A stretch of 64,000 bases of DNA from Micromonosporaceae bacterium (GTDB lineage: Bacteria; Actinomycetota; Actinomycetes; Mycobacteriales; Micromonosporaceae), in NCBI GenBank assembly GCA_007130245.1, contig SLSW01000268.1:85-64084 (forward strand), in the 5' to 3' direction. The notes under the pieces were generated by a model. It did not search any database and was not told the DNA's origin. It saw only the letters and a list, made by a program, of their open reading frames with translations. The position numbers were made by a program, and so were the translations under genes. This document shows positions 26,038 through 40,038 of this stretch, one piece after another; positions within the stretch are counted from its first letter, which is position 1, and each line of letters starts with the position of its first letter.

Positions 26038-26137
26038 GGGCTGATTCTCCCGGGTGTCCGGGGCGGTCAGCAAGTGGCGCCACGTGCCAGGACCGCGCGC
26101 CCGCACTGCCGCGCACGGGCGTGGCCGGCGTTGGCCG

Positions 26138-27487
26138 CTACCGGGTGGCGGAGACCGCCTGTTTGGACCACCAGCGGCGGCCGGACTCGGGCAGGGTGTC
26201 GATCGGATCGTAATACGGGTAGCGGCGGCTCAACGCGTCGGCCTCGTCGGCCTCGATGGAGGTGCGGTAGTTCTTCGTCCAGTACGAGATGCCGTGCTCG
26301 CGGTCGTACTCGGTGACCATGTGCACCCACCGCTTGCCCACGAACGGCACGTCGCACACGATGCGCGGTGTCGCGTACCCCGGCAGCCAGCCCATGATGT
26401 CGTGCTGCAGCTGCTGAGCCTGCCACACCGGCAGCCGCCAGTGCTCGGCATTGGGGATCATGTCGCACATGTAGAAGTAGTAGGGCAGGATGGCCGCCTC
26501 GCCCTGCAGGCCGAAGCACAGTTCCAGCAGGTCGTCGGCGGTGTCGTTGACCCCGCGCATGAGCACACCCTGGTTGCGCACGTCGCGCACCCCGACCTCC
26601 AGCGCGGTGCGGGCGGCCTCGGCCACCAGCGGCGTGAGCGAGTTGGTGTGGTTGACGTGGGTGTGGATGGCCAGGTTCACCCCGCGCCGGTGCGCGGTGC
26701 GTGCCACCCGTTCGAGTCCTTCCACCACGGCCGGCTGCAGCCAGTGCTGCGGCAGGCCGGCCAGCGCCTTGGTGGCCAACCGTATGTCGCGCACCGAGTC
26801 GATGTCCAGCAGCCGCATCACGTACGACTCGAGGTTTTTCCACGGGATGTTGGCCACGTCGCCGCCGGAGACCACCACATCCCGTACGCCGGGGTGCTTT
26901 TTCAGATAGTCGATGTGCGCGTCGTAGCGCTCCACCGGCTTGAGGGTGAGCTTGAGCTTGTCCACCGCCGGGGTGGAGTTGCCGACCAGGTCCATGCGGG
27001 TGCAGTGCCCGCAGTACTGCGGGCAGGTCGACAACAGCTCGGCCAGCACCTTGGTGGGGTAGCGGTGGGTCAGACCCTCGGTGGCCCACATGTCGTGCTC
27101 GTGCAGCGAGTCCCGGGTGGCGTGCGGGTGGCTGGGCCAGTCGCTGCGCCGATCGGAAGCCACCGGGATCATGTAGTGCCGCAACGGATCGGCGTAGAAC
27201 GACTCGGTGTCCGGCACCGCGTGCGGCACCATCGTGTTGAGCATCTGCGGCGGCACCAGCATGGACATCGTGGCCGTCGCCTGCTGGTCGGCCTGCAGAT
27301 CCTCGTAGAACCGCTCGTCGACCAGGTCGCCGAGCAGTGCCCGCAGCTGCTTGATGCTCTTGACGCAGTTGGCGCGCTGCCACTGCGCCGAGCGCCACTG
27401 CTCGGTAGTGACCTCGCGCCAGCCGGGGAAGCGCCGCCAGTCCGGCTCGACCAGTTCCCGCCGCCGGTACTCGAACGGTTGCGTCAC
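26138..27487 (-). CDS. kamA: lysine 2,3-aminomutase (radical SAM, KamA family)
   Basis: It has the CPQYCGHCTR radical-SAM cluster motif, is 449 aa and has a KamA-like N-terminus (WRSAQWQRANCVKS). Confidence 0.9.
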   Translation of the reverse strand: MTQPFEYRRRELVEPDWRRFPGWREVTTEQWRSAQWQRANCVKSIKQLRALLGDLVDERFYEDLQADQQATATMSMLVPPQMLNTMVPHAVPDTESFYADPLRHYMIPVASDRRSDWPSHPHATRDSLHEHDMWATEGLTHRYPTKVLAELLSTCPQYCGHCTRMDLVGNSTPAVDKLKLTLKPVERYDAHIDYLKKHPGVRDVVVSGGDVANIPWKNLESYVMRLLDIDSVRDIRLATKALAGLPQHWLQPAVVEGLERVARTAHRRGVNLAIHTHVNHTNSLTPLVAEAARTALEVGVRDVRNQGVLMRGVNDTADDLLELCFGLQGEAAILPYYFYMCDMIPNAEHWRLPVWQAQQLQHDIMGWLPGYATPRIVCDVPFVGKRWVHMVTEYDREHGISYWTKNYRTSIEADEADALSRRYPYYDPIDTLPESGRRWWSKQAVSATR

Positions 27488-27590
27488 GCCCCGACCTCCT
27501 GCCGCTTCCCGGCCCCACCTCGCGGAGCCGAACTATCTCCGTTCTGTAAGCTACTAGCACGAAGATATTACAGGCAAGGAGGCCAGGTAC

Positions 27591-28631
27591 GTGGATTCGT
27601 CCGTAGGGCTGCACCGGGTGCGCGAACCGCTCGGGGTGCTGCCGCAGGCCGCCTGGCGCCTGGACACCTGTGCGGACATCGGGCCGGACGAGGTCCGCGT
27701 GGCCGTGGAGCGCCTCAACCTGGACGCGGCCAGCTTCCGCCAGCTGCGCGACACGCACGACGACGACCCGCACGCCATCCGGGCCGAGGTGCGCAAGATA
27801 ATCGCCAACCGCGGCAAGATGCACAATCCGGTTACCGGTTCCGGTGGGATGCTGATCGGCACCGTGGACGAAGTCGGGCCCGACTCTCCGCTCGGCCTGC
27901 GCCGCGGCGACCGGGTCGCCACCCTGGTCTCGCTGACCCTGACCCCGCTGGCGGTCACCGACGAACTGGCCGACTGGGACGGTCGCAGCGAGCAGGTGCC
28001 CTGCCGCGGGCACGCCATCCTGTTCGCCCGCTCCGCGGTGGCGGTGCTGCCCGACGACCTCGCACCCGCCGTCGCCCTGGCGGTGTTCGACGTGTGCGGC
28101 GCACCCGCACTGACCGCCCGCGTCGTGGCACCGTACGCCCAGCGGCAGGCACCGGCCGTAGCCGTGCTCGGCGGCGCCGGCAAGAGCGGGGCGCTGTCGC
28201 TGGCCGCCGCCCGCCACGCCGGCGCGGTGAACACCGTCGGCGTGGTGCCCACCCCCGCCGAGCGGGACCGGCTGTCGGCCGCGGGGCTCGCCGACCACGT
28301 GGTCATGGCCGACGCCCGCGACCCGGTGGCGCTGTCCAAGGCCGTCACCGGCGCGCTCGGGCGGCCCGCCGACATCGTCGTGGTCTGCGTGGACGTGCCC
28401 GGCTGCGAGCACGGGGCGGTGCTGGCCACCGCCGACGGCGGCACGGTCATCTTCTTCTCCATGGCGACCGCGTTCTCCGCCGCGGCCCTCGGCGCCGAAG
28501 GCCTGGCCGCCGACGTCACCATGCTGATCGGCAACGGCTACGTCCCCGGCCACGCCGCCTACGCGCTGGACCTGGTGCGCGAACATCCGCCGCTCCGGCG
28601 TCTCATCGAGTTGCGCACCCAGGCACACTGA
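27591..28631 (+). CDS. kdd: L-erythro-3,5-diaminohexanoate dehydrogenase
   Basis: HRVREPLGVLPQAAWRLD and RGKMHNPVTGSGGMLIGTV match the Kdd signature regions. Confidence 0.85.
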   Translation: MDSSVGLHRVREPLGVLPQAAWRLDTCADIGPDEVRVAVERLNLDAASFRQLRDTHDDDPHAIRAEVRKIIANRGKMHNPVTGSGGMLIGTVDEVGPDSPLGLRRGDRVATLVSLTLTPLAVTDELADWDGRSEQVPCRGHAILFARSAVAVLPDDLAPAVALAVFDVCGAPALTARVVAPYAQRQAPAVAVLGGAGKSGALSLAAARHAGAVNTVGVVPTPAERDRLSAAGLADHVVMADARDPVALSKAVTGALGRPADIVVVCVDVPGCEHGAVLATADGGTVIFFSMATAFSAAALGAEGLAADVTMLIGNGYVPGHAAYALDLVREHPPLRRLIELRTQAH

Positions 28632-28636
28632 CAGCT

Positions 28637-30217
28637 ATGACTTCCGACCCCACCACGCTCTACCGCGGCGGGCGCGTGCACAGCCCGACCGATCCGCACG
28701 CCACCGCGCTGCTGGTCTCGGGCGGCACCGTCGCCTGGGTCGGCCCGGAAGGCGACGCCCCGGCCGCCGACCGGGTCGTCGACCTCGACAGCGCCCTGCT
28801 CACCCCCGCTTTCGTCGACGCCCACATGCACGTCACCGACACCGGCCTGACCGCCACCGGGCTGGACCTGTCCACGACCCGGTCAGCCACCGACGTGCTG
28901 GAGGCGGTGGCCGGCGCCGCGCAGCGCCTGCCGACCGACGCGGTGCTGCTCGGCCACGGCTGGGACGAGTCGACCTGGCCGGACCCCGACCGCAACCCGC
29001 CGGACGCGGCCGCGCTGGAGCGGGCCGCCGGCGGGCGCCGGGTCTACCTGTCCCAGGCCAGCATCCACTCCGCACTCTGTTCGCCCGCGCTGCTGGCCAC
29101 CGTGGCACCGGACACCCCCGGCTACGACCCGTCCGGGTGGGTGCGACGGGAGGCCCACCGCGCCGCCCGCGAGGTGGCCTTCGCCTCCATCAGCACCAGC
29201 CAGCGCGCCCAGGTGCAGCGCACCGCTCTGCGCCACGCCGCCTCGCTCGGCATCGCCGCGGTCCACGAGTGCGGTGGTCCCGGCACCTCCTCCGAGGACG
29301 ACTTCACCGCAGTACTGGCGCTGTCCGGCGACGCACTGCCCGAGGTGTACGGCTACTGGGGCGAGCCGATGGGCGCGGAGCGGGCGAGGCAACTTGGCGC
29401 GCTCGGCGCCGGCGGCGACCTGTACGCCGACGGGGCGCTGGGATCGCAGACCGCGCACCTGCGCGAGACGTACGCCGACCGGGCCGACCACCGCGGCTAC
29501 GGCTACCTGACCAGCGAACAGGTGCGCGACCACCTGCTGGACTGCCACGACCACGGTGTCCAGGGCGGGTTCCACGCTATCGGCGACGCGGCGCTGGCCG
29601 CGGTGCTCGACGGGTTCGCGGCCGCGGCGGCCAAGCTGGGCCCGGAGCGGCTGCGCGCGGCACGCCACCGCATCGAGCACGCCGAGCTGATCGACCGGAA
29701 CATGATCGCCCGGGTGGTGGAGTACGGCGTGATCGCCAGCATGCAGCCGGCGTTCGACCGGCTGTGGGGCGGCGAGTCGCAGATGTACGCCGCGCGGCTG
29801 GGCCGGCAGCGGGCGCTGGAGGCCAACCCGTTCGGCGCCATGCACGCCGTCGGTGCGGCGCTGGCGTTCGGCTCGGACAGTCCGGTCACCCCGCTGGACC
29901 CGTGGGGCAGCGTGCGGGCGGCGGCCTGCCACCACAACCCCGCTTACCGGATGGGCGTACGGTCGGCGTTCGCCGCCCACACCCGCGGCGGCTGGCGCGC
30001 GGTCGGGCAGGACACCCATGGTGTGCTGACCCCCGGGGCGCCCGCCACCTTCGCGGTCTGGCACACCCCGGCCGGCCTCGACGGCACCCTGCCGGTGCTG
30101 ATGGCCGCCGACCCGGCCGAGCACGGCCCGCAGGACCCGACGCCGCTGCCGACCTGCCGGCGCACCGTGCTACGCGGCCGGACCATCTACGACCAGCAGC
30201 AGGAGCCCGACCGGTGA
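28637..30217 (+). CDS. amidohydrolase family protein (Amidohydro_3, YtcJ-like)
   Basis: ATG 28637 in the frame of ORF 26054..30217. It has the metal ligands FVDAHMHV, and later HAIGD and SDSP. Confidence 0.8.
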   Translation: MTSDPTTLYRGGRVHSPTDPHATALLVSGGTVAWVGPEGDAPAADRVVDLDSALLTPAFVDAHMHVTDTGLTATGLDLSTTRSATDVLEAVAGAAQRLPTDAVLLGHGWDESTWPDPDRNPPDAAALERAAGGRRVYLSQASIHSALCSPALLATVAPDTPGYDPSGWVRREAHRAAREVAFASISTSQRAQVQRTALRHAASLGIAAVHECGGPGTSSEDDFTAVLALSGDALPEVYGYWGEPMGAERARQLGALGAGGDLYADGALGSQTAHLRETYADRADHRGYGYLTSEQVRDHLLDCHDHGVQGGFHAIGDAALAAVLDGFAAAAAKLGPERLRAARHRIEHAELIDRNMIARVVEYGVIASMQPAFDRLWGGESQMYAARLGRQRALEANPFGAMHAVGAALAFGSDSPVTPLDPWGSVRAAACHHNPAYRMGVRSAFAAHTRGGWRAVGQDTHGVLTPGAPATFAVWHTPAGLDGTLPVLMAADPAEHGPQDPTPLPTCRRTVLRGRTIYDQQQEPDR

Positions 30218-31830
30218 GCACACCACCCGCCCGTACCCACCGCAAGCTCGACCTGGACCCGGCGCTGGTGGCCCGCGCCCGGGCGCTGGCGCGCCAGGCC
30301 GCCGCGCCGGTGGTGGAGCTGGCCCACACCCACACCACCGTGTCGGTGGAACGGGCGCTGCTGCGGCTGCTCGGCGTCACCGGCGCCGACCCGGACGGCA
30401 TCCCGTGGGTCAACCACCTGGTCGACGCGGTGCGCGAGGACACCGGCCTGGCCAACGGGGTGGCCACCCCGGTGTTCCACGCGCTGGCCGGCGAATCCGG
30501 CGACCCGCCGCCTGGGGCAGCCGCCGACGACGTGGCCGCCGAGCTGACGCTGCTGGCGCAGAAGGCCGCCGCCGGCTCGGTGCGCTTCACCCAGCCGACC
30601 GGGTCCGCGGCCACCGCCGCCCGCGACGCCGCCCGGGAAGCGACCGCCGCCGGCATCGCCCGCCTCGACGCCCGCCGGGCCGAGCGCGACCAGCTGGTCG
30701 CCCGCCACGGCGACCCGCCGCGGCGCCCCTGGTCGTACCTGATCGTGGCCACCGGCGACATCTACGAGGACATCGCCCAGGCGCAGGCGGCCGCCGCCGG
30801 CGGCGCCGACATCATCGCCGTGATCCGCTCCACCGGACAGTCGCTGCTGGACTACGTGCCCGAGGGCGCCACCCGGGAAGGGTTCGCCGGCACCTACGCC
30901 ACCGGCGAGAACTTCCGGCTCATGCGTGCCGCGCTGGACGAGTCGTCGGCGAAGCTCGGCCGCTACGTCCGGCTGACCAACTACGCCTCCGGGTTGTGCA
31001 TGCCCGAGATCGCCACCCTGGCCGGGCTGCAGCGCCTCGACATGATGCTCAACGACTCCATGTACGGCATCCTGTTCCGCGACATCAACCCGATCCGCAC
31101 CTTCATCGACCAGCGTTTTTCCCGGCAGGTCCACGCCCGCGCCGGCATCATCATCAACACCGGCGAGGACAACTACCTGACTACCGCCGACGCGGTCGAC
31201 GAGGCGCACACGGTGACCGTCTCGCAGGTGCTCAACGAGTACTTCGCCCACGAGGCCGGGCTGCCGGACACGCAGCTGGCGCTCGGGCACGCCTTCGAGA
31301 TCAACCCTGACCTGCCCGAGTCGTTCCGCCTGGAGCTGGCGCACGCGCTGCTGGCGCGCGAACTGTTCCCGGATGCGCTGCTGAAGTGGATGCCGCCGAC
31401 CAAGCACATGACCGGCGACGTGTTCCGCGGCAACCTGCTCGACGGGTTCTTCAACCTGGTGGGCGCCCTGACCGACCAGGACATCCTGCTGGTGGGCATG
31501 ATGACCGAGGCGGTGGTCACCCCGTGGCTGTCCGACCGCGACATCGCACTGCAGAACGTGCGCTACGTGCTCGGCGCCGCCGGCGGGCTGCACGCCGACT
31601 TCGTGCCCGAGCCCGGCGGGTTCATCCAGCAGCGCGCCAACCGGGTGCTCGCCGAGGCCGTCGACCTGCTGGAACGGATCGTGGCAGGCGGCCTGCTGGA
31701 GGCCATCGGCGACGGCACGTTCGGGATCATGAAACGCCCCGCCGACCGCGGCAAGGGCCTCGACGGCGTGATCCGCCACGCCGAGGACTACTACCATCCC
31801 GCGATCGATATTCTGGAAGGTAGAGACTGA
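30214..31830 (+). CDS. kamD: lysine 5,6-aminomutase alpha subunit
   Basis: GTG 30214 overlaps the amidohydrolase stop. About 538 aa of TIM-barrel subunit pattern (NYASGLCMPEIA...INTGEDNYLTTADA). Confidence 0.85.
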   Translation: MSTPPARTHRKLDLDPALVARARALARQAAAPVVELAHTHTTVSVERALLRLLGVTGADPDGIPWVNHLVDAVREDTGLANGVATPVFHALAGESGDPPPGAAADDVAAELTLLAQKAAAGSVRFTQPTGSAATAARDAAREATAAGIARLDARRAERDQLVARHGDPPRRPWSYLIVATGDIYEDIAQAQAAAAGGADIIAVIRSTGQSLLDYVPEGATREGFAGTYATGENFRLMRAALDESSAKLGRYVRLTNYASGLCMPEIATLAGLQRLDMMLNDSMYGILFRDINPIRTFIDQRFSRQVHARAGIIINTGEDNYLTTADAVDEAHTVTVSQVLNEYFAHEAGLPDTQLALGHAFEINPDLPESFRLELAHALLARELFPDALLKWMPPTKHMTGDVFRGNLLDGFFNLVGALTDQDILLVGMMTEAVVTPWLSDRDIALQNVRYVLGAAGGLHADFVPEPGGFIQQRANRVLAEAVDLLERIVAGGLLEAIGDGTFGIMKRPADRGKGLDGVIRHAEDYYHPAIDILEGRD

Positions 31831-31882
31831 TTTCTGCAGCTAGCTTGCACAGAACGCCCTGAAACTGTCAGGAGGCGGGGCC

Positions 31883-33289
31883 GTGTTACGAAGTTTTCGG
31901 GTCAGCAACCACAAGTCCTTCCGGGACGAGGCGGAGCTGTTGCTCATTCCGGCCTACGACAAGTCACGCGACGTCGTACCTGTGGCCGGGATCCTGGGTG
32001 CAAATGCCTCGGGAAAGTCGAACCTGCTCGACGCCCTGCGCTGGTTGCAGAAAGCGGTACGCGAGTCGTATGCGCACTGGGAGCCGGGCGCTGGTGTGCC
32101 CCGCACGCCGTTTCGTCTGGACCCGGACTACTCCAGCCAGCCGTCGCTGTACTGCGTCGAGATCGTGGTCGACGGATCGCGCTACACCTACGGGCTGGAA
32201 GTCGACGACCAGCGCGTGCTGACCGAGTGGCTCTACACCTACCCGCACAACCGCAGGCGGGTCATCTTCGAGCGCGAAGACGGAACGGTTCGCCTGGGCT
32301 CCACCGTCCCCGAATATCGGGCCCGGACCGAGCAACTGGCTCGCCAGACCCGCGACAACGCCCTGTTCCTGTCCGTCGCAGCGCACAACGAGCTTACTGA
32401 GGCGCAACCGCTATACAACTGGTTTCGTCAGAACCTACGATTCGCCGATGGCACGACGATCGCCGAAGACGAGCTAGTCGCGCGATTGACTGACGCCGAT
32501 AAGCGCGGATCGATCTTGTCGCTCGTCAGGATAGCTGATCTTGGGATAACTAACATAACCATCGAAAGCCGCGATTCTGAGCTGGCTGCTATTGAGAAAC
32601 ACATTACCGATCAGTCGATGCTCATCGCGCGGCTGTTGGCTGAGATGAAAGGCCTGCAGGCAGACGGGACTCTCTCCGATACCGACAGCGAGGACACGGA
32701 AGAGAATCATGCGTTGGCCAGAAGGCTTGTACATGCAAAGCTAGACCGGGCTCGCGAGGCGTTGGCGAGTCGGCATATGCTTGAGGGCAGCAAAGAACAA
32801 ATCCGGTCGGTGCCAAGACTGCGTTTCCACCACGGCGCGAATACCGTTCCGTTGACGCTTACGGAGCAGTCATCTGGCACTCGCAGCTGGCTTGGTCTAC
32901 TATCGGCGGCGCTCGGTGCCCTCGCGTCCGGGGGGATGCTGATAGTGGATGAATTGAACGCCAGTCTCCACCCGCACCTCTCAGCACGGTTGATGACACT
33001 GTTTCGGGATCCGGAGACCAATCCCAGCGGTGCACAGCTGCTCTTCACTACCCATGACGCGACCCTGCTCGACGAGGACACCCTTGGGCGGGACGAGATC
33101 TGGTTCATCGAGAAGGATCCCGACAGTGGGGCTACCAACCTGTTCCCGTTAACCGACTTCCACCCGCGCAAGAATGAGAATCGAGTAGGTCGGTACTTGG
33201 CTGGCGCCTACGGAGCGATCCCCCTTGTCTCCGACTACGACCTGCAACAGGCATTTCACGATGGCGGGGAAGCCGATGCCGCGGCGTGA
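31883..33289 (+). CDS. ABC-type AAA_15/AAA_21 family ATPase (AbiLi / OLD-ATPase-like)
   Basis: Walker A GANASGKS (31997-32020), signature-like EQSSGT, Walker B MLIVDELNASLHP and H-loop FTTHD. The C-terminal DEIWFIEKD...RYLAGAYGAIP is also present. An SD aggagg precedes the GTG start, and codon usage is atypical. Confidence 0.85.
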   Translation: MLRSFRVSNHKSFRDEAELLLIPAYDKSRDVVPVAGILGANASGKSNLLDALRWLQKAVRESYAHWEPGAGVPRTPFRLDPDYSSQPSLYCVEIVVDGSRYTYGLEVDDQRVLTEWLYTYPHNRRRVIFEREDGTVRLGSTVPEYRARTEQLARQTRDNALFLSVAAHNELTEAQPLYNWFRQNLRFADGTTIAEDELVARLTDADKRGSILSLVRIADLGITNITIESRDSELAAIEKHITDQSMLIARLLAEMKGLQADGTLSDTDSEDTEENHALARRLVHAKLDRAREALASRHMLEGSKEQIRSVPRLRFHHGANTVPLTLTEQSSGTRSWLGLLSAALGALASGGMLIVDELNASLHPHLSARLMTLFRDPETNPSGAQLLFTTHDATLLDEDTLGRDEIWFIEKDPDSGATNLFPLTDFHPRKNENRVGRYLAGAYGAIPLVSDYDLQQAFHDGGEADAAA

Positions 33290-33830
33290 CAACACCGCCC
33301 GCCGGAGGCAACCGTCACGAGACAAGCCGCGTACGATCCTTGTCTACTGCGGCGCGCTCCGCACCGAACCCGCCTACTTCAACGCCCTGCGGCGCGACAC
33401 GCGGAGAAGGAACGTAACCGTCAAGATCCGACAGGACGGAACCGCCCCACACGCGCTTGTCAAAGCAGCCGCGGCATACCGAGATCGCGGGCCTGCCGAC
33501 TTCGACGAGGTCTGGTGTGTGGTCGACACCGACGAGTTCGACGTCGCCGCGGCGGCGGACGTAGCCGCGAAGCATCGGGTCAACCTGGCGGTGTCGAACC
33601 CATGCTTCGAGCTGTGGCTGCTGCTACACCACACCGACTGCCGAGGAAGCTGCGACGGTTGCTCCGACGTGCAGCGTCGTCTACGCCACTTCGTACCGGA
33701 CTATGACAAGGCGAGGCTGGACTTCAATCGTTTTGCACCCGGAGTCAACCACGCCGTCATGAGAGCGAAGAAACTCGAACCGACCGGCACAACATACGGG
33801 AAAACCCCTCCAGCGGAGTCTGGCGGCTAG
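33261..33830 (+). CDS. RloB-like (Toprim-related) protein, C-terminus possibly frameshifted
   Basis: ILVYCGALRTEPAYF, VVDTDEFD (a DxD motif) and NPCFELWLLLH resemble RloB family motifs. It overlaps the ATPase gene by 29 nt from ATG 33261. Confidence 0.75.
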   Translation: MAGKPMPRRDNTARRRQPSRDKPRTILVYCGALRTEPAYFNALRRDTRRRNVTVKIRQDGTAPHALVKAAAAYRDRGPADFDEVWCVVDTDEFDVAAAADVAAKHRVNLAVSNPCFELWLLLHHTDCRGSCDGCSDVQRRLRHFVPDYDKARLDFNRFAPGVNHAVMRAKKLEPTGTTYGKTPPAESGG

Positions 33831-33852
33831 TGGAAACGGTCATGGAATTGCG

Positions 33853-34626
33853 ATGAGTGCCACCACCGAACAACCGACCATAATCCGGCCGTACGGGGAT
33901 ACCACCGGTGACGGCATGGTGCAGCTGTCGTTCACGCTGCCGGTGCCGCCCGGCCGGCAGGCCGAGGGCGCCGCGCAGCAGCTGGCGGCAAAGATGGGCA
34001 TCGACCCGGCGATGGTCGTGCACACCCGCGAGGTCGCCGAGGGCTACACCTTCTTCGTCGTCTACGGGCGGGTCAACCACCTGGTGGACCTGTCACAAGT
34101 GCAGGTGGCCGAACAGGACTTCCCGCTGCTCAGCCCCAAGGAGGTCAACGACGCGGTGCGCCAGCACCTGCGCCGGCCGCTGTCGGTGGTGGGCGCCTGC
34201 ATCGGCACCGACGCGCACACCGTGGGCATCGACGCGATCCTCAACATCAAGGGGGTGGCGGGGGAGAAGGGCCTGGAATACTACCGCGAGCTGGCCGTGA
34301 CCAACCTGGGTGCGCAGGTCAGCGTGCCGGAACTGGTCGAGCAGGCGCGCGCGCGGCAGGCCGACGCGGTGCTGGTGTCGCAGGTGGTCACCCAGCGCGA
34401 CGCGCACCTGCACAACGTGCGGGAGATGTCGGCCGCGTTCCGGGAGGCGTTCCCGGCCGGAGCGCGCCCGCTGCTGGTGGTGGGCGGGCCCCGCTTCGAC
34501 GAGACCATGGGCGACGAGCTGGGCGTCGACCGCATCTTCGGCCGCGGCACCACCCCGGCCGAGGTCGCCTCCTACCTCGTCCACGCCCTCATCAGGACCG
34601 ATCTTGGACGCCCGCCTGCCCGATAG
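33853..34626 (+). CDS. kamE: lysine 5,6-aminomutase beta subunit (B12-binding)
   Basis: IRPYGDTTGDGMVQLSFTLPV N-terminus and the DAHTVG cobalamin-binding DxHxxG motif. Confidence 0.9.
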   Translation: MSATTEQPTIIRPYGDTTGDGMVQLSFTLPVPPGRQAEGAAQQLAAKMGIDPAMVVHTREVAEGYTFFVVYGRVNHLVDLSQVQVAEQDFPLLSPKEVNDAVRQHLRRPLSVVGACIGTDAHTVGIDAILNIKGVAGEKGLEYYRELAVTNLGAQVSVPELVEQARARQADAVLVSQVVTQRDAHLHNVREMSAAFREAFPAGARPLLVVGGPRFDETMGDELGVDRIFGRGTTPAEVASYLVHALIRTDLGRPPAR

Positions 34627-34671
34627 GGGCGGCCAGCGTCCAAGATCCAAGCAAGTGGCGGCTTGACAGAC

Positions 34672-35073
34672 ATGGAGGTCCGCATGAGCGACGACGACCC
34701 GCGGCTGGGCACCACCGTGACCCACCGCCGCTACGTGCCCTACTCCCACGCCCACTACGCCGGCAATCTGGTCGACGGCGCCTACGCCATGTCGCTGTTC
34801 GGCGACGTCGCCACCGAGGTGTGCATCCGCACCGACGGCGACGAAGGGCTGCTCGCCGGCTATTCCGATGTGAAGTTCACCGCCCCGATCCGCGCCGGTG
34901 ACGTGCTGGAGATCACCGCCAGCGTCACCCGGGTGGGCCGGCGCAGCCGCACCCTGCAGCTGACCTGCTCGGTGGTGTGCCGCGGGCGCCCGGACCGCTC
35001 CGAGAGCGCCGCCGAGGTGCTCGATCCGCCGCTGGTGGTGGCCACCGCCACCGGCACCGTCGTGGTGCCCTGA
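34672..35073 (+). CDS. kal: 3-aminobutyryl-CoA ammonia-lyase (hotdog fold)
   Basis: About 130 aa with HAHYAGNLVDGAYAMSLFGDVATE and APIRAGDVLEI. Its position in the kam cluster fits. The start is uncertain (34663, 34672 or 34684). Confidence 0.7.
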   Translation: MEVRMSDDDPRLGTTVTHRRYVPYSHAHYAGNLVDGAYAMSLFGDVATEVCIRTDGDEGLLAGYSDVKFTAPIRAGDVLEITASVTRVGRRSRTLQLTCSVVCRGRPDRSESAAEVLDPPLVVATATGTVVVP

Positions 35074-35081
35074 CCGGCGCC

Positions 35082-36473
35082 GTGAGCTATGCGGTCTGCG
35101 CCGACATCGGCTCCACCTTCACCAAGGTCGCGCTGGTCGCGCTGCCGTCCGGCCGGCTGCTGGCCACCGGGGCGCATCCGACCACGGTCGACACCGATGT
35201 GTTGCACGGCCTCGACTCCGCCGCCGCACGGGCCGCCGCCCACGCCGGCGATGCCGCCGGCGTCGATCCGAAGGCGTCATGGTACGTGTGCTCCTCGGCC
35301 GGCGGCGGGTTGCGCCTGGCCGTGGTCGGCCACGAACAGTTGGTCACCGCGCAGGCCGGGCGCCGGGTAGCCCTCAGCGCCGGGGCGCGGGTCGTGCACG
35401 TGGCCGCCGGCAAACTGTCCGGCAAGGACGTCGCCTCGCTGGACGCCGCCCAGCCGGACATCGTACTGCTGGTCGGCGGCACCGACGGCGGCGAGGCCGA
35501 CACGCTGCTGCACAACGCCGGGATGCTGGCGCGTGCCGGGCGGCGCCGCCCGGTGGTGCTGGCCGGCAACGCCGACGCCCGCGAGCAGGCCACCGCCGTG
35601 CTCACGCGCACCGGCACACCGGTGCGCGCCACTGCCAACGTGCTACCGCGCATCGGCCAGCTACACCCCGCACCGGCCCGCGCCGCGATCCGCGAGGCGT
35701 TCCTGCGCCACGTCATCGGCGGCAAGCGGCTCTCGCGCGGCCCGCGGCTGGCCGGCCTGCTGCGCACGGCCACCCCGGACGCGGTGCTGGCGGCCGTCGA
35801 GCTGCTGGCCGACCACGACCACGGCGATCTGCTGGTCGCCGACGTCGGCGGCGCCACCACCGATGTCTACTCCGCGGTCACGCCCGACACCGACCTCGAC
35901 CGCGGCCGCGACGCCGACGCGGAGGTCGCCGGGGTGCTGGCGCGGGCGCGCACCGTGGAGGGTGACCTGGGGGTGCGGTGGAGCGCGCCCGGTGTCGTCG
36001 CCGCGGCTATCGACGAGAACCTCCTGGCCAGCGGCGAGGCCGAGGCGCTCACGGCCGCCGCCGGACAACGGGCGGCGGCACCCGGGCTGGTCGCCGCCGA
36101 GGCCGTCGCACGGGCCCACGACCACCGGCTGGCGGGGCTGGCCGCGGTGGTGGCCGTACGCCGCCACGCGCGCGGCGACACGCCGGGGCCGGTACGCCGC
36201 GGCGGACGCGACCTGCGCCGGGTGCGCACCGTGATCGGCTCCGGTGGGGTGCTGCGCCACGCCGAGCACCCGGAACAGCTGCTGGCCACGGTGGTCAGCG
36301 ACCACGCCGGCGGGTGGGCACCGCCGCAGCGGGCCTACACCGTGGTCGACACCCGCTACGTGCTGGCCGCAGCCGGCCTGCTGGCCGGCGACCACCCGCG
36401 GGCCGCGTTGCGGCTGCTGCGCGACGACCTGCCAGTCGGCGACCTGCCCGGTGGTGAGCCGGCCCACGGTTAG
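35082..36473 (+). CDS. glutamate mutase L (GlmL/MutL)-like protein, putative aminomutase reactivase
   Basis: GTG 35082. The ADIGSTFTKV and LLVGGTDGG motifs belong to the GlmL/ASKHA-like family that is found in kam clusters. Confidence 0.8.
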   Translation: MSYAVCADIGSTFTKVALVALPSGRLLATGAHPTTVDTDVLHGLDSAAARAAAHAGDAAGVDPKASWYVCSSAGGGLRLAVVGHEQLVTAQAGRRVALSAGARVVHVAAGKLSGKDVASLDAAQPDIVLLVGGTDGGEADTLLHNAGMLARAGRRRPVVLAGNADAREQATAVLTRTGTPVRATANVLPRIGQLHPAPARAAIREAFLRHVIGGKRLSRGPRLAGLLRTATPDAVLAAVELLADHDHGDLLVADVGGATTDVYSAVTPDTDLDRGRDADAEVAGVLARARTVEGDLGVRWSAPGVVAAAIDENLLASGEAEALTAAAGQRAAAPGLVAAEAVARAHDHRLAGLAAVVAVRRHARGDTPGPVRRGGRDLRRVRTVIGSGGVLRHAEHPEQLLATVVSDHAGGWAPPQRAYTVVDTRYVLAAAGLLAGDHPRAALRLLRDDLPVGDLPGGEPAHG

Positions 36474-36502
36474 CGCCCGGTCCGGTTGGGAACTGCCATA
36501 GG

Positions 36503-38359
36503 ATGACTGAGCATTTTCGGCCGGTGTCGGCGGTCGACGGCTACCTGCCGATCGGCGACCATGGCCTCATCGGTGATGTCCGCAGCGCCGCCCTGGTCGG
36601 TCGGGACGGCGCGGTTTCCTGGCTGTGCGCGCCCCGTTTCGACAGTTCCCCGGTGTTCTGCGCCCTGCTGGACCATGAGCGCGGTGGCGCGTTCCGGGTG
36701 GTCGCCCACGGGCTGCAGGAGTCCCGGCAGCACTACCACCCCGACACCGGGGTGCTGGTCACCGAGCTGCGCACCGGCACCGGGGTGCTGGAGCTGACCG
36801 ACGCGCTGACCCTCAACGAGGGGGTGGACCTGGCCGAACGCACCCGCGCCGGGCGTGGCGAGCTGCTGCGCCGGATGCGGGTCACCCACGGCGAGGTCGA
36901 TGTGGAACTCGCCGTGCAACCCCGCGGCGAGGTCAGCGTGCAGCGCAGCGACGACGGCTGGCGGCTGCACAGCGACGACTGGCCGGACGTAATTCTCCAC
37001 TTTGCCGTCTCGCCGCCGGCCGACGGGCTTAACAGCCGGATACGCCTGGCCGCCGGCCAGCGGGTGTACGCGCAGTTGAGCTGGGCCGACGACGCCCACC
37101 GCCGGCGGTGGCCGGATCCGGAGCGCCGGATGGCCTCCACCATCGTCGACTGGCAGCGGTGGGCGCGGTGCCTGACCTACGACGGCCCGCAGCAGGCGCT
37201 GGTGCGACGCTCGGCGGTGACGCTGAAGATGCTCGATCACGACGCCGGCGGCGCGATCGTGGCCGCGCCGACCTCGTCGCTGCCGGAGGCGATCGGCGGC
37301 GAACGCAACTGGGACTACCGCTTCTCGTGGGTGCGCGACGCGGCGTTCTCGGTCTACGCGATGCGGCGGGTGGGTCTGGCCAGCGAGGCGAACAACTTCC
37401 TGCACTGGGTGCTCGACGCGGTCGAGCGCAAGGGCGAGGCGCGGGTGCTCTACGACCTCGACGGCCACGCGCCGCCGGACGAGCGCGTCGACCCGCACCT
37501 GCGCGGCTACCGCCACTCTTCCCCGGTGCGCTGGGGCAACGGTGCCGCCGAGCAGACCCAGCACGACGTGTGGGGCGAGATCCTCGACTGCGCCCACCAG
37601 CGGGTCGCCGGCGGCGGCGCCATCGACCCGGCACTGTGGAGCTGGCTGCGTGAGCTCGTCGGTCGCGCCCAGCGCCGCTGGCACCAGCCCGATCACGGCA
37701 TCTGGGAGGTGCGCACCTCCGGGCGCCTGTTCACCTACTCGGTGGCCATGTGCCAGGTGGCGCTGGACCGCGCGGCCCGCATGGCCAGGCGTCTCGACCT
37801 GCCCGGCGACCCGGACACCTGGGCCGCCGACGCCGACCGCATCCGTGAGGCGCTGCTGCAGGAGGCCTGGGATTCGCAGCGGCAGACCCTGGTGGAACAC
37901 CTGGCACCGGACGAGGAGCAGCGCGCCGCGGCGGGACTGGACGCCTCGCTGCTGGCACTGCCGCTGCGGCGGATGATCTCCAGCACGCACCCGAAGATGA
38001 TCGCCACCACCGCCGCGGTCGCCGAGCGCCTCGACGCCGGCGACGGGTTGCTGTTCCGCTACCTTCCCGAGGAGTCTCCCGACGGGCTGTCCGGCGACGA
38101 GGGTGCCTTCCTGTTGTGCAGCTTCTGGTTGGTGGACAACCTGGCCAAGCAGGGTCGGGTGGACGAGGCCGGGCAGCTGTACGAGTCGCTGTGCGCCCGG
38201 GCCAACCCGCTGGGGCTGCTGCCGGAACAGATCGAACCGGCCACGGGAGCGTTCCTGGGCAACTTCCCGCAGGCGTTCAGCCACGTGGGCGTCATCAGCA
38301 GCGCATTGAACCTGCAGCGGGCCGCCCGCGAGAATCACACGGAGGTGACGCGCCGATGA
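36503..38359 (+). CDS. glycoside hydrolase family 15 (glucoamylase/trehalase-like)
   Basis: ERNWDYRFSWVRDAAF, WEVR and FLLCSFWLVDNL are typical of GH15. Confidence 0.85.
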   Translation: MTEHFRPVSAVDGYLPIGDHGLIGDVRSAALVGRDGAVSWLCAPRFDSSPVFCALLDHERGGAFRVVAHGLQESRQHYHPDTGVLVTELRTGTGVLELTDALTLNEGVDLAERTRAGRGELLRRMRVTHGEVDVELAVQPRGEVSVQRSDDGWRLHSDDWPDVILHFAVSPPADGLNSRIRLAAGQRVYAQLSWADDAHRRRWPDPERRMASTIVDWQRWARCLTYDGPQQALVRRSAVTLKMLDHDAGGAIVAAPTSSLPEAIGGERNWDYRFSWVRDAAFSVYAMRRVGLASEANNFLHWVLDAVERKGEARVLYDLDGHAPPDERVDPHLRGYRHSSPVRWGNGAAEQTQHDVWGEILDCAHQRVAGGGAIDPALWSWLRELVGRAQRRWHQPDHGIWEVRTSGRLFTYSVAMCQVALDRAARMARRLDLPGDPDTWAADADRIREALLQEAWDSQRQTLVEHLAPDEEQRAAAGLDASLLALPLRRMISSTHPKMIATTAAVAERLDAGDGLLFRYLPEESPDGLSGDEGAFLLCSFWLVDNLAKQGRVDEAGQLYESLCARANPLGLLPEQIEPATGAFLGNFPQAFSHVGVISSALNLQRAARENHTEVTRR

Positions 38360-39726
38360 TCAGTCGACTGCTCATTCTCGGCGGATCCGGTGACCTGACC
38401 GCCCGTTACCTGATGCCGGCGTTGGCAGAGCTGCAGGCGGGCGGGCAGCTGCCCGAGGGGCTGCGAGTCACAGGTGTCGGACGCGATGAGTGGGACGACG
38501 AGCGGTTCGGCGAGTTCGCCGCCGAGGCGTTGCGCCGCCACGCGCCGGCGCACGTGGGCGGCTCGCACGACGCGTTGCTGGCGGCGCTGTCCTGGCGCAC
38601 CGCCGATGTCACCGACGCCGACCGGCTCGGCCGGTTGGTCGGCGAGTCGGACGAGCCGGTGGTGGTGTACCTGGCGCTGCCGCCGGCGGTGTTCGCCCCG
38701 GTCGTGGACGCCCTGTGCCGCATCCGTCTACCGTCCGGGTCGGTGCTGGTGGTGGAGAAACCGTTCGGCACCGATCTGGACAGTGCCCGGGATCTCAATG
38801 AACGTCTCAGCGCGCTGCTGCCCGAGGAGGCGGTGTTCCGCCTGGACCACGTGCTGGCCAAGCAGACCGTGCAGAACATCCTCGGGCTGCGCTTCGCCAA
38901 CCGGGTGTTCGAGCCGATCTGGAGCCACGCGCACGTGTCCCAGGTGGACATCGTCTGGGACGAGACCCTGGCACTGGAGGGGCGCGCCGGCTACTACGAC
39001 CGCGCCGGGGCGTTGCGGGACATGGTGCAGAACCACCTGCTGCAGCTGCTGGCGCTGGTGGCGATGGAGCCGCCCACCGGCATGGGTCAGCGGGACCTGC
39101 GCGAACGCAAGGTGGACGTGCTGCGTGCCACCCGCGCGCTGACCAGCGACGAGACCGACCACCCGTCGGTGCGCGCCCGCTACACCGCCGGTGAGCTCGG
39201 CGGAGCGCAGGTTCCCGACTACACCTCTGAGGAGGGTGTTGATCCCCGGCGGGGCACCGAGACGTTCACCGAGGCCACCCTGGCGGTGGACAACTGGCGT
39301 TGGGCGGGCACCCTGTTCACGCTGCGCACCGGCAAGGCGTTGGCTGGCGACCGCACCGAGATCGTGCTGCGTTTCCACGAGGTGCCCCACCGGGTGTTCC
39401 CGGTCGATACCGCACCCGAGGCGAACACGCTGCGGCTGCGGCTGGGCCCCGACCAGATCCGGTTGCGGGTGAACTTGAATACCTCCGAGGATCTGTTCAC
39501 CCTGGAACCGGGCGAGTTGGCGCTGTCGCTGGCGCCGCCGCAGCTGTCGGCCTACGCCAGGCTGCTGCTCGACATCCTCCACCGGGACGCCACATTGTCC
39601 ATCCGCGGCGACGAGGCCGAAGAGTCGTGGCGGATCGTGCAGCCCATCCTCGACTCGTGGGCACGCGACGAAGTCCCGCTCGCCACCTATCCGGCCGGCT
39701 CGTCCGGCCCTGGTTCCTCGCCATAG
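38356..39726 (+). CDS. zwf: glucose-6-phosphate dehydrogenase paralog (divergent active-site motif)
   Basis: LILGGSGDLTARYLMPAL NADP motif. RLDHVLAKQ stands in place of the canonical RIDHYLGKE. It has an ATGA overlap with the GH15 gene. Confidence 0.8.
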   Translation: MISRLLILGGSGDLTARYLMPALAELQAGGQLPEGLRVTGVGRDEWDDERFGEFAAEALRRHAPAHVGGSHDALLAALSWRTADVTDADRLGRLVGESDEPVVVYLALPPAVFAPVVDALCRIRLPSGSVLVVEKPFGTDLDSARDLNERLSALLPEEAVFRLDHVLAKQTVQNILGLRFANRVFEPIWSHAHVSQVDIVWDETLALEGRAGYYDRAGALRDMVQNHLLQLLALVAMEPPTGMGQRDLRERKVDVLRATRALTSDETDHPSVRARYTAGELGGAQVPDYTSEEGVDPRRGTETFTEATLAVDNWRWAGTLFTLRTGKALAGDRTEIVLRFHEVPHRVFPVDTAPEANTLRLRLGPDQIRLRVNLNTSEDLFTLEPGELALSLAPPQLSAYARLLLDILHRDATLSIRGDEAEESWRIVQPILDSWARDEVPLATYPAGSSGPGSSP

Positions 39727-40038
39727 GAGCCGTCCCGGCGCGACACGCGGCAGCGACACGCCGAGGTCGCGAACTCAACACCTCGCCACGCCTTGACATC
39801 GGCCCGGGGGCTGCGCGTACCGTCGTGGGGTCAAGGCGACGGCTGGTGTCACGTGCTCCAGGGGGGCGGGCGCGGTCAGTAGAGAACGGTGCGACGCAGG
39901 TGACGCACTGAGGCGCTCCGGTACGAAGGCCGCGCCGGTCACCAGCCGTGCGGCAGAGGGGGGCGTGGTCACGCGGCCACGCCCCCGCTCTACCTACCTG
40001 CCCGCGCCCCGGCGGAGGCGGTCAGGCAGGCTAGAGGG

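What the first reader, a model, noticed from the sequence alone, without database searches (positions are those of the whole stretch)
31831..33856. ABC-ATPase + RloB/Toprim two-gene module wedged between the alpha and beta subunit genes of lysine 5,6-aminomutase
kamD ends at 31830 and kamE starts at 33853. These genes encode the two subunits of one enzyme and would be expected to be adjacent. Here about 2 kb separates them on the same strand. The first inserted gene encodes a 468-aa AAA_15/21-type ATPase with Walker A GANASGKS, SSGT, Walker B LIVDE, TTHD and a C-terminal RYLAGAYGAIP. The second, overlapping gene encodes a protein of about 190 aa that is RloB-like (TEPAYF, DTD, NPCFELWLLLH). 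An ATPase plus a Toprim-like partner is the architecture of split OLD-family nucleases and AbiL-type (AbiLi/AbiLii) abortive-infection modules. No integrase, transposase, tRNA or terminal repeats flank the pair. The gaps to the neighbouring genes are only 52 nt and 22 nt, inside an operon whose other junctions are 4-nt overlaps or short gaps. The pair therefore looks co-transcribed with a catabolic operon rather than sitting in a defence island. That context is unusual: it could reflect defence hitchhiking on a metabolic promoter, an addiction-like stabiliser, or a co-opted function.
Basis: partly seen in the sequence, partly recalled or inferred. Interest (0 to 1): 0.85.

Follow-up and report, generated by a model that had tools for sequence, protein, structure and literature searches.

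The report
Defence pair embedded in lysine operon
A two-gene AbiL-type module (an ABC ATPase plus an RloB/Toprim-like protein, a kind known from phage defence) does sit between the two subunit genes of lysine 5,6-aminomutase, but it is not a one-off insertion: related pairs occupy exactly this junction in dozens of soil actinomycetes and have largely co-diverged with the operon.

Summary
kamD (30214-31830) and kamE (33853-34626) are separated by an AbiLi-type ABC ATPase (31883-33289; PADLOC AbiLi 1e-89, Pfam AAA_21 9e-43) and an AbiLii/RloB protein (33276/33261-33830; Pfam RloB 1e-31).

The interpretation needs revising. The window's pair has no close relative (next best 62% identity). Yet its nearest homologues nearly all lie at the same kamD|kamE junction: 7 of 80 genomes retrieved with KamE, and about 49 metagenome or genome loci.

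In pair-free ("empty") operons kamD and kamE overlap by 4 nt (ATGA). In most operons carrying the pair ("filled"), abiLii overlaps kamE in the same way. The pair is under purifying selection (dN/dS 0.1-0.3), and its tree shares 8 of 19 splits with the KamD+KamE tree (random maximum 3). It is therefore an old, frequently lost and mostly vertically inherited resident of the operon.

Low GC3 is a trait of this AbiL family in every context, so it does not show recent arrival. More basal relatives sit beside rimO downstream of ftsK. A conserved dyad box (TGC-N9-GCA) precedes abiLi in kam, ftsK-rimO and one plasmid context, which suggests the cassette has its own control element.

The most likely function is a PARIS-like ATPase-sensor/nuclease-effector abortive-infection module. 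That function is untested.

The parts
26138..27487 (-). kamA-like lysine 2,3-aminomutase (divergent neighbour of the operon)
   Evidence: Pfam Radical_SAM and NCBIfam KamA family, both below the curated cut-off; syntenic in nearly all related loci
27591..28631 (+). kdd, L-erythro-3,5-diaminohexanoate dehydrogenase
   Evidence: NCBIfam Lys_ferment_KDD 257.9 bits, cut-off 200
28637..30217 (+). Amidohydro_3-type amidohydrolase of the operon
   Evidence: Start mapped; the homologue in L117 hits Pfam Amidohydro_3 at 3.6e-73; the same gene is called in L084 and L168
30214..31830 (+). kamD, lysine 5,6-aminomutase alpha subunit
   Evidence: Pfam Lys-AminoMut_A 5.4e-235; NCBIfam Lys_5_6_mutase 671 bits, cut-off 600
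31835..31849 (+). Dyad box TGCAGCTAGCTTGCA (TGC-N9-GCA), 33 nt upstream of the abiLi start; candidate operator/promoter element belonging to the cassette
   Evidence: The same box lies 33-37 nt upstream of abiLi in most of the 41 distinct loci that carry it, both kam-linked and not (range 21-38 nt), and upstream of a Rhodococcus plasmid copy. Pairing statistics are moderate. RNA folding support is weak. No Rfam match
31883..33289 (+). abiLi-type ABC (AAA_21/SMC-like) ATPase, 468 aa, with a hypervariable middle segment (about residues 196-312)
   Evidence: PADLOC AbiLi 1.1e-89, Pfam AAA_21 9.3e-43; catalytic motifs on invariant columns; a family profile hits PtuA, the retron Ec83 ATPase and SMC in the PDB; variable middle segment
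33276..33830 (+). abiLii / RloB-family (Toprim-like) protein, 184 aa (189 aa if started at 33261)
   Evidence: Pfam RloB 1.2e-31, PADLOC AbiLii 7.1e-24; Glu36 after the first predicted strand and D89-x-D91 at the end of the third (189-aa numbering) are conserved
33853..34626 (+). kamE, lysine 5,6-aminomutase beta (B12-binding) subunit
   Evidence: Pfam OAM_dimer plus B12-binding; NCBIfam Lys_5_6_beta 348.8 bits, cut-off 280
34684..35073 (+). kal, 3-aminobutyryl-CoA ammonia lyase (hotdog fold)
   Evidence: NCBIfam Lys_ferment_KAL 192.3 bits, cut-off 160; gene call in L081
35082..36473 (+). GlmL/MutL-family mutase accessory protein
   Evidence: Pfam MutL 1.9e-135; NCBIfam glmL_fam 255.5 bits, cut-off 204

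Best explanation
The 2-kb segment is an intact AbiL-type two-gene module: an ABC/SMC-like ATPase (AbiLi) and an RloB-family, Toprim-like protein (AbiLii). It belongs to a large actinobacterial clade whose fixed chromosomal home is the kamD|kamE junction of the lysine-degradation operon.

Shown here. Ancestrally kamD and kamE are translationally coupled by an ATGA overlap. A cassette entered exactly at that point long ago. It has since been inherited mostly vertically with the operon, kept under purifying selection, diversified quickly (above all in the middle of the ATPase), and often been lost or decayed.

Inferred from architecture. The operon transcript must run through the cassette to express kamE, so the pair is expressed at least whenever the operon is. 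A conserved dyad box that travels with the cassette probably adds a promoter or operator of its own.

Inferred by analogy. As in PARIS and other ATPase-plus-Toprim/OLD systems, the ATPase probably holds the nuclease-like partner inactive and acts as the infection sensor through its variable insert. A phage trigger would then release or activate AbiLii, which would cut nucleic acid and abort the infection.
For: Identity: PADLOC AbiLi 1e-89 and AbiLii 7e-24; Pfam AAA_21 and RloB. All ATPase motifs, plus the Glu and DxD of AbiLii, sit on conserved columns.

Recurrence at the junction: 7 of 80 KamE-anchored genomes. P0002, P0007 and P0041 lie between Lys-AminoMut_A and OAM_dimer/B12 genes. About 49 AbiLi loci are kam-linked. 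Same-context nearest neighbours number 60 of 70, against a permuted mean of 36.7 and maximum of 52.

Exact junction: pair-free operons show the ATGA/GTGA overlap. Most filled operons show a 4-nt abiLii/kamE overlap and an abiLi/abiLii overlap of about 14 nt.

Vertical history: 8 of 19 NJ splits are shared with KamD+KamE (random mean 0.16, maximum 3), and Mantel r is 0.48 with p 0.001. AbiLi distance is never smaller than Kam distance in any distance bin.

Selection: dN/dS is 0.10-0.32 for both genes (one short abiLii comparison gives 0.49). The middle segment carries indels, higher dN/dS, and a mosaic replacement in L096/L098.

Defence-type relatives: the wider family (30-37% identity) is found on 170 plasmid records and 5 phage records. 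One example lies next to mobF and a Fic/VbhA toxin-antitoxin pair in Rhodococcus.

Literature: AbiL is grouped with PARIS as ABC ATPase plus TOPRIM. In PARIS the ATPase acts as sensor/antitoxin and the Toprim protein as toxic effector (PMC13064643).

Decay pattern: AbiLii is truncated or absent while AbiLi stays intact in about 10 loci. This fits an effector/toxin that is lost first.
Against: No experiment shows anti-phage activity, toxicity or nuclease activity for any member of this clade. The mechanism of AbiL itself is unknown.

The Toprim fold of AbiLii was not confirmed structurally. The AF2 model reached only pLDDT 73.5, and Foldseek against the PDB gave no match at E <= 0.001.

Long-term fidelity to one site inside a metabolic operon is atypical for defence genes and could mean something other than defence.

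GC3 stays 0.1-0.25 below the neighbours despite the apparent age. In some pairs dS of the cassette is 3-10 times that of the adjacent kam codons. Allele import therefore cannot be excluded.

The trees are NJ without bootstrap, and the deep nodes disagree.

The loci retrieved with AbiLi are biased toward having AbiLi intact, which weakens the decay-order argument.
Confidence: 0.62

Rival explanations
1. Recent, one-off insertion of a mobile defence cassette that merely hitch-hikes on the kam promoter.
For: GC and GC3 of the pair are well below the flanks. The window's pair has no close relative; the next best is 62% for AbiLi and 70% for AbiLii. Relatives occur on plasmids.
Against: Homologous pairs sit at the identical junction in many genera. 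The pair's tree is congruent with the operon tree. AbiLi divergence is never below Kam divergence, so no recent transfer is visible. Low GC3 is family-wide in all contexts. There are no repeats, integrase or tRNA.
Confidence: 0.04
2. Functional integration with the enzyme or pathway. The pair has been co-opted or acts as a guard: for example it monitors KamDE, B12 or lysine status, or it ties an abortive response to lysine catabolism. That link would explain its fidelity to the junction between the two subunit genes.
For: The pair has stayed exactly between the two subunit genes, usually coupled to kamE by ATGA. It has co-diverged with the operon and is under purifying selection. There is a precedent from established knowledge: PrrC is wedged inside the EcoprrI hsd operon and is held latent by the flanking gene products.
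Against: Most kam operons lack the pair (73 of 80). The pair often decays while the kam genes stay intact. Sister and basal lineages live in unrelated places: next to rimO, at the end of a CoxE/XdhC cluster, and on a plasmid. They carry the same upstream box, which argues for an autonomous module. No KamD or KamE feature distinguishes filled from pair-free operons.
Confidence: 0.12
3. Selfish toxin-antitoxin-like addiction cassette whose persistence owes more to position than to benefit. Any imprecise deletion would destroy kamD or kamE or their coupling, so only rare precise losses are tolerated.
For: The architecture is TA-like, by analogy with PARIS acting as a type II TA. AbiLii decays while AbiLi is retained. 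The fit at a 4-nt coupling junction is tight. A second home lies directly beside the conserved gene rimO.
Against: Clean pair-free junctions are by far the commonest state, so loss is evidently easy, or else pair-free is the ancestral state in most lineages. dN/dS of 0.1-0.3 on both genes over long times, together with a hypervariable sensor-like segment, points to selection for function. This reading is not mutually exclusive with defence.
Confidence: 0.15
4. Site-specific mobile ('homing-like') cassette. The nuclease would target pair-free kamD|kamE junctions and the cassette would spread horizontally into them.
For: The distribution is sporadic at one precise site in a conserved gene pair, with degenerate copies, as in homing-endonuclease cycles. 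In some pairs dS of the cassette is far higher than dS of the flanks (L088/L091).
Against: No case shows the cassette more similar than its kam flanks. The trees are significantly congruent. There is no target-site duplication or conserved flank signature. Related clades occupy other sites.
Confidence: 0.04

Closest known systems
AbiL (AbiLi/AbiLii) of Lactococcus lactis plasmid pND861, as modelled in PADLOC
   Same: Two adjacent, overlapping genes: an ABC/Rad50-like ATPase and a small RloB/Toprim-like protein. Both PADLOC profiles hit (1e-89 and 7e-24).
   Different: The lactococcal system is plasmid-borne and was shown to abort phage infection. This clade is chromosomal, fixed inside a catabolic operon in high-GC actinomycetes, and untested. 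The mechanism of AbiL is itself unknown (PMC13064643).
PARIS (AriA ATPase plus AriB Toprim nuclease)
   Same: An ABC ATPase plus a Toprim-type partner. It is the likely model for sensor/antitoxin and effector roles. The ATPase carries a variable insert.
   Different: The AriA hit is only the generic AAA_21 region (2e-41, same coordinates as the Pfam hit). AbiLii hits RloB/AbiLii, not AriB. It is therefore not a PARIS member.
RloA/RloB 'restriction-linked ORFs' in Campylobacter type I R-M loci, and PrrC inside the EcoprrI hsd operon (from established knowledge; RloAB is also named)
   Same: An ATPase plus an RloB pair, or an abortive-infection nuclease, wedged between genes of another conserved operon on the same strand.
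   Different: There the host operon is itself a defence system and (for PrrC) physically regulates the embedded gene. Here the host operon is a B12-dependent lysine catabolic pathway with no known link to phage.
OLD-family nucleases and Gabija GajA (fused ATPase-Toprim)
   Same: The same two functional modules, and weak PADLOC GajA hits (about 1e-7).
   Different: The domains lie on separate polypeptides. RloB is a distinct Pfam family. No GajB-like helicase partner is present.
Core-genome defence hotspots flanked by conserved genes (from established knowledge)
   Same: A defence-type locus that is present or absent between conserved chromosomal genes.
   Different: Hotspots hold many unrelated systems and turn over horizontally. 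Here one family alone occupies the site, inside an operon at a translational-coupling junction, and it co-diverges with the flanks.

Membership tests
AbiL (PADLOC definition) | A gene matching the AbiLi profile | tested here: met
   PDLC02335 AbiLi E 1.1e-89, 298.7 bits, residues 1-457
AbiL (PADLOC definition) | An adjacent gene matching the AbiLii profile | tested here: met
   PDLC02337 AbiLii E 7.1e-24; Pfam RloB 110.8 bits, cut-off 31.5; overlaps gene 1 on the same strand
AbiL (functional definition) | Aborts phage infection | not testable with these tools
ATPase plus Toprim/OLD-type two-component systems | ABC-type ATPase with Walker A, signature, Walker B and H-loop motifs | tested here: met
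   GANASGKS, SSGT, LIVDE and TTHD lie on invariant or near-invariant columns; Pfam AAA_21 147.8 bits; a family profile hits PtuA, the retron Ec83 ATPase and SMC heads in the PDB
ATPase plus Toprim/OLD-type two-component systems | Partner with a Toprim fold carrying a conserved Glu and DxD | tested here: inconclusive
   Glu36 follows predicted strand 1 and D89-x-D91 ends strand 3 of a beta-alpha-beta-alpha-beta-alpha-beta core, which is the Toprim pattern. But the model has pLDDT 73.5 and Foldseek against the PDB gave no hit at E <= 0.001. The Toprim assignment for AbiLii comes from the literature
PARIS | AriB-type (DUF4435) Toprim effector | tested here: not met
   Only AbiLii was hit in PADLOC, with no AriB. 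Pfam gives RloB only
Lysine 5,6-aminomutase operon | Alpha and beta subunit equivalogs, with KDD, KAL and GlmL-family genes | tested here: met
   NCBIfam scores exceed the curated cut-offs for the alpha subunit, beta subunit, KDD, KAL and glmL_fam
Integrative mobile element or insertion sequence | Integrase or transposase, a tRNA or att site, terminal or target-site repeats | tested here: not met
   No convincing flanking repeats. No tRNAs in the 64 kb. The neighbours are operon genes in every kam-linked locus. No junction duplication is visible
Defence island or variable hotspot | Several unrelated defence systems or variable cargo at the site | tested here: not met
   Among 80 KamE-anchored loci the junction is either pair-free (ATGA or a short spacer) or holds this AbiL family only

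The most novel reading that the evidence does not exclude
The AbiL clade at kamD|kamE is not merely parked there but is physiologically wired to the operon. Its expression, and hence an abortive or toxin response, would be gated by lysine catabolism. Alternatively the ATPase would guard the KamDE/B12 enzyme complex, in the way PrrC is guarded by the restriction enzyme whose operon it sits in. This would be a defence or toxin module coupled to a metabolic enzyme, stable across a bacterial family.
Probability: 0.12. Interest if true: 0.85.

Novelty: new variant of a known kind. Interest (0 to 1): 0.6.

Why it matters
Defence systems are usually described as mobile cargo of variable islands. Here a whole clade of an AbiL/PARIS-like module has kept one address: the translational-coupling point between the two subunit genes of a B12 enzyme. 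It has stayed there across many genera, co-diverging with the operon while remaining dispensable. A sister group keeps a different fixed address, next to rimO.

If confirmed, this gives three things:
- A natural series of dozens of divergent alleles in an identical genomic frame, suited to mapping what the hypervariable ATPase insert recognises.
- A case for studying how an operon tolerates 2 kb of foreign genes between obligate partner genes.
- A tractable entry point into the still unknown mechanism of AbiL/RloAB systems in actinomycetes.

It also shows that a GC3 deficit alone can wrongly suggest recent insertion.

Tried and rejected
1. Mobile-element signatures. The repeat search across 31000-34800 found only chance-level matches, and the tRNA scan found none.

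2. Known RNA element. Rfam at E <= 1 over 25000-37000 gave no hit.

3. RNA hairpin reading of the conserved upstream box. My stem/loop model gave 79% paired cells, against 36-48% with slid partners, and a covariation score of 0.266 against 0.211 (2 of 500 shuffles). However, the three central pairs were fixed by how I anchored the alignment. RNAalifold kept only 5 pairs at -3.2 kcal/mol with no compensatory change. The window's own leader does not fold better than shuffles (z +0.77). I therefore treat the box as DNA-level dyad symmetry, not as an RNA structure.

4. Sigma-70-type promoter or terminator in the gaps. None was found between kamD and abiLi or between abiLii and kamE. The terminator-like hits are at the chance level.

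5. Structural confirmation of Toprim. Sequence searches of the PDB were empty for both proteins. The AF2 model of AbiLii had moderate confidence, and the Foldseek matches were generic alpha/beta folds.

6. Homing or recent horizontal spread. No cassette is more similar than its flanks.

7. A KamD C-terminus or KamE N-terminus signature distinguishing filled from pair-free operons. None was seen.

8. Naming the source organism. The cluster look-up gave no names. Only KamE/KamD similarity (up to 84-87%) and synteny point to Micromonosporaceae-like actinomycetes.

9. Literature. No paper links kamD/kamE with RloB, AbiL or OLD.
Full report
OBSERVATION. The ORF list and the sequence confirm the layout. 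On the + strand the operon reads:
- kdd (27591-28631)
- an Amidohydro_3 gene (28637-30217)
- kamD (30214-31830)
- a 52-nt gap
- a 468-aa ORF (31883-33289)
- an overlapping ORF of about 185-190 aa ending at 33830
- a 22-nt gap
- kamE (33853-34626)
- kal (34684-35073)
- a GlmL/MutL-family accessory gene (35082-36473)

NCBIfam equivalogs for KDD, the alpha and beta subunits of lysine 5,6-aminomutase, and KAL all exceed their curated cut-offs. Pfam agrees. The first inserted protein matches PADLOC AbiLi (1.1e-89) and Pfam AAA_21 (9.3e-43). The second matches Pfam RloB (1.2e-31) and PADLOC AbiLii (7.1e-24). The second gene most likely starts at ATG 33276, because that Met is invariant in alignment A3 and gives the 14-nt overlap seen in relatives. 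The pair has lower GC (57-64% against 70-79%) and lower GC3 (0.72-0.76 against 0.93-0.95). The 64 kb holds no tRNA. No meaningful repeats flank the pair, and no terminator-like site lies in the gaps.

THE SAME PAIR AT THE SAME JUNCTION ELSEWHERE. A KamE-anchored scan of one genome per species returned 80 loci, mostly Micromonosporaceae, with KamE 75-84% identical. In 73 of them kamD and kamE are adjacent, usually with the kamD stop overlapping the kamE start (ATGA or GTGA). Seven carry AbiLi and AbiLii homologues between kamD and kamE: Allorhizocola, three Actinoplanes, Phytohabitans, Micromonospora sp. CA-263727 and a MAG. These are only 45-63% identical to the window's pair.

Searching from the other direction gave the same picture. 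The window's AbiLi has no close relative in 5.8 billion proteins; the next best is 62%. Yet the contigs encoding the best hits place them between Lys-AminoMut_A and OAM_dimer/B12 genes (P0002, P0007, P0041). A metagenome scan with an AbiLi alignment gave 80 more loci. Nearly every one with AbiLi at 47% identity or more and enough flank shows kamD upstream, kamE downstream, or both. In most filled loci the abiLii stop overlaps the kamE start by 4 nt, and abiLi and abiLii overlap by about 14 nt. The cassette therefore occupies the ancestral coupling point and recreates the coupling on the kamE side. The window's 22-nt gap is a minority state.

EVOLUTIONARY HISTORY. In an NJ tree of AbiLi the kam-linked loci form one large clade. 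L117, which looked like an exception, follows the operon's amidohydrolase gene. Genomic context is strongly structured by phylogeny: 60 of 70 sequences have a nearest neighbour in the same context, against a permuted mean of 36.7 and maximum of 52.

For 22 loci with good data, the AbiLi tree and the KamD+KamE tree share 8 of 19 splits (random mean 0.16, maximum 3), and Mantel r is 0.48 with p 0.001. AbiLi distance is never smaller than Kam distance in any distance bin, so no recent horizontal spread is visible. Both AbiL genes are under purifying selection, with dN/dS mostly 0.10-0.32, similar to the kam genes.

The pair's faster protein divergence comes with higher dS. In some pairs dS is 3-10 times that of the adjacent kam codons (Actinoplanes trio; L088/L091). 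In others it is equal (L049/L127, L139/L144, L129/L145, L151/L154). I cannot decide whether this reflects weaker synonymous constraint or occasional allele replacement.

The GC3 deficit recurs in 51 kam-linked loci (mean -0.11, range -0.33 to +0.11). It also appears in the non-kam loci. It is therefore a property of the family and does not date the arrival.

The middle of AbiLi (about residues 196-312) is barely alignable, rich in indels, and in some close pairs shows raised dN/dS. In L096/L098 it looks replaced outright, with dN 0.38 against 0.03 in the rest of the protein. That is the behaviour expected of a specificity or sensor region. AbiLii is truncated, frameshifted or missing in about 10 loci that still have an intact AbiLi. 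These include isolate genomes such as Phytohabitans kaempferiae and Plantactinospora.

OTHER HOMES OF THE FAMILY. More basal relatives (about 38-50% identity) lie directly upstream of rimO (UPF0004 plus Radical_SAM plus TRAM) and downstream of ftsK. This holds in about a dozen metagenome loci and in Kutzneria kofuensis. Others lie at the end of a CoxE/XdhC cluster in Jiangella or in miscellaneous places. The wider family (30-37% identity) is on 170 plasmid records and a few phage records. In a Rhodococcus plasmid it sits between mobF and a Fic/VbhA pair. The module is therefore autonomous and defence-like in its wider distribution. This argues against a dedicated role in lysine metabolism.

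A CASSETTE-BORNE CONTROL ELEMENT. The kamD-abiLi spacer is not random. A box with dyad symmetry, TGC-N9-GCA, lies 33-37 nt before the abiLi start codon in most of the 41 distinct loci where I could anchor it. The consensus is TTCTTGCGGTTTACTTGCAAGAA, and the window's version is TGCAGCTAGCTTGCA at 31835-31849. The box occurs in kam-linked, ftsK-rimO and other contexts, and it precedes the Rhodococcus plasmid copy. Flanking positions covary to some degree. RNA-level support is weak, however, and Rfam has nothing. I read the box as a DNA operator or promoter element that belongs to the cassette. This is a hypothesis. It would mean the pair is not wholly dependent on the kam promoter. Even so, transcription must cross the pair for kamE to be expressed, because pair-free operons leave no room for a kamE promoter.

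MECHANISM. Shown: an intact ABC ATPase and an intact RloB protein with a conserved Glu and DxD, both under purifying selection. Inferred by analogy: a 2026 review groups AbiL with PARIS as ABC ATPase plus TOPRIM. It states that in PARIS the ATPase is sensor and antitoxin while the Toprim protein is the toxic effector, and that it is unknown whether AbiL and RloAB work the same way (PMC13064643). I propose this model. AbiLi sequesters AbiLii and senses a phage product through its variable insert, and released AbiLii cleaves nucleic acid. The decay of AbiLii before AbiLi fits a toxic effector, but the AbiLi-based sampling biases that observation. I could not confirm the Toprim fold: the AF2 model had pLDDT 73.5, and Foldseek gave no significant PDB match. 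The predicted order of strands and helices, and the positions of Glu36 and D89-x-D91, do fit the Toprim pattern.

COMPARISON AND NOVELTY. By PADLOC's two-profile definition this is an AbiL system. It is not PARIS, because there is no AriB hit. It is not a fused OLD/Gabija nuclease either. The closest precedents for a module wedged inside another operon are RloAB and PrrC in type I restriction loci (established knowledge; RloAB is named). There, however, the host operon is itself a defence system. I found no paper linking kamD or kamE with RloB, AbiL or OLD. The module is a known kind. What is new is a clade with long-term site fidelity inside a catabolic operon, at the coupling junction of two subunit genes, together with a sister clade fixed beside rimO. 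I rate it a new variant of a known kind, with interest about 0.6.

VERDICT. The assignments and the unusual context are right, but the pair is an old, family-wide, polymorphic operon resident rather than a singular insertion. Low GC does not indicate recent arrival. The function is most likely PARIS-like abortive infection, and this is untested.

Noticed in passing
window 31835-31849; the same position in L035-L148 and L169 2938-2952: A conserved dyad box TGC-N9-GCA (consensus TGCGGTTTACTTGCA; TGCAGCTATGCTGCA in the ftsK-rimO clade) lies 33-37 nt upstream of abiLi in most of the 41 loci carrying it, across all genomic contexts. A Rhodococcus plasmid copy also has it. It is a candidate operator/promoter of AbiL cassettes. 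RNA-hairpin support is weak.
   Followed up: partly
L108, L111, L114-L116, L118, L120, L122, L124, L135, L146, L159, L166: A sister or basal group of the same AbiL family sits immediately upstream of rimO and downstream of ftsK, for example in Kutzneria kofuensis. This is a second fixed chromosomal address.
   Followed up: partly
window 32468-32818 (AbiLi residues about 196-312); L096 against L098: The middle segment of the ATPase is hypervariable with indels. In one otherwise close pair it is replaced outright (dN 0.38 against 0.03 in the flanking parts). This suggests a swappable specificity domain.
   Followed up: partly
L039, L049, L093, L102, L107, L137-L141, L168: AbiLii is truncated, frameshifted or absent while AbiLi stays an intact ORF. 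The nuclease-like partner seems to decay first.
   Followed up: partly
all AbiL loci (kam, ftsK-rimO and other contexts): GC3 of the AbiL genes is 0.1-0.25 below that of neighbouring genes in every context, despite apparently long residence. In some pairs dS of the cassette far exceeds dS of the flanks. Neither is explained.
   Followed up: partly
L005, L020, L030, L036, L050, L059, L072 (about 6920-7000 in each): Several pair-free kam operons carry a 55-80 nt GC-rich spacer between the kamD stop and the conserved KamE N-terminus, instead of the ATGA overlap. Some spacers resemble one another. Their nature (KamE N-terminal extension or a small insert) was not examined.
   Followed up: no
L117 1988-5916; also L110 and L129: One subclade (L110, L117, L129, L145) has host-like GC3 (0.91-0.96) and a degenerate or missing dyad box. 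In L117 the pair directly follows the operon's amidohydrolase gene with no kamD in between, which suggests a rearranged operon.
   Followed up: no
window 36503-42446: Downstream synteny (a GH15/TREH_N-like gene, G6PD, Lnt, a glycosyltransferase) matches that of the related contigs L082 and L084. This places the operon in conserved core chromosome.
   Followed up: partly
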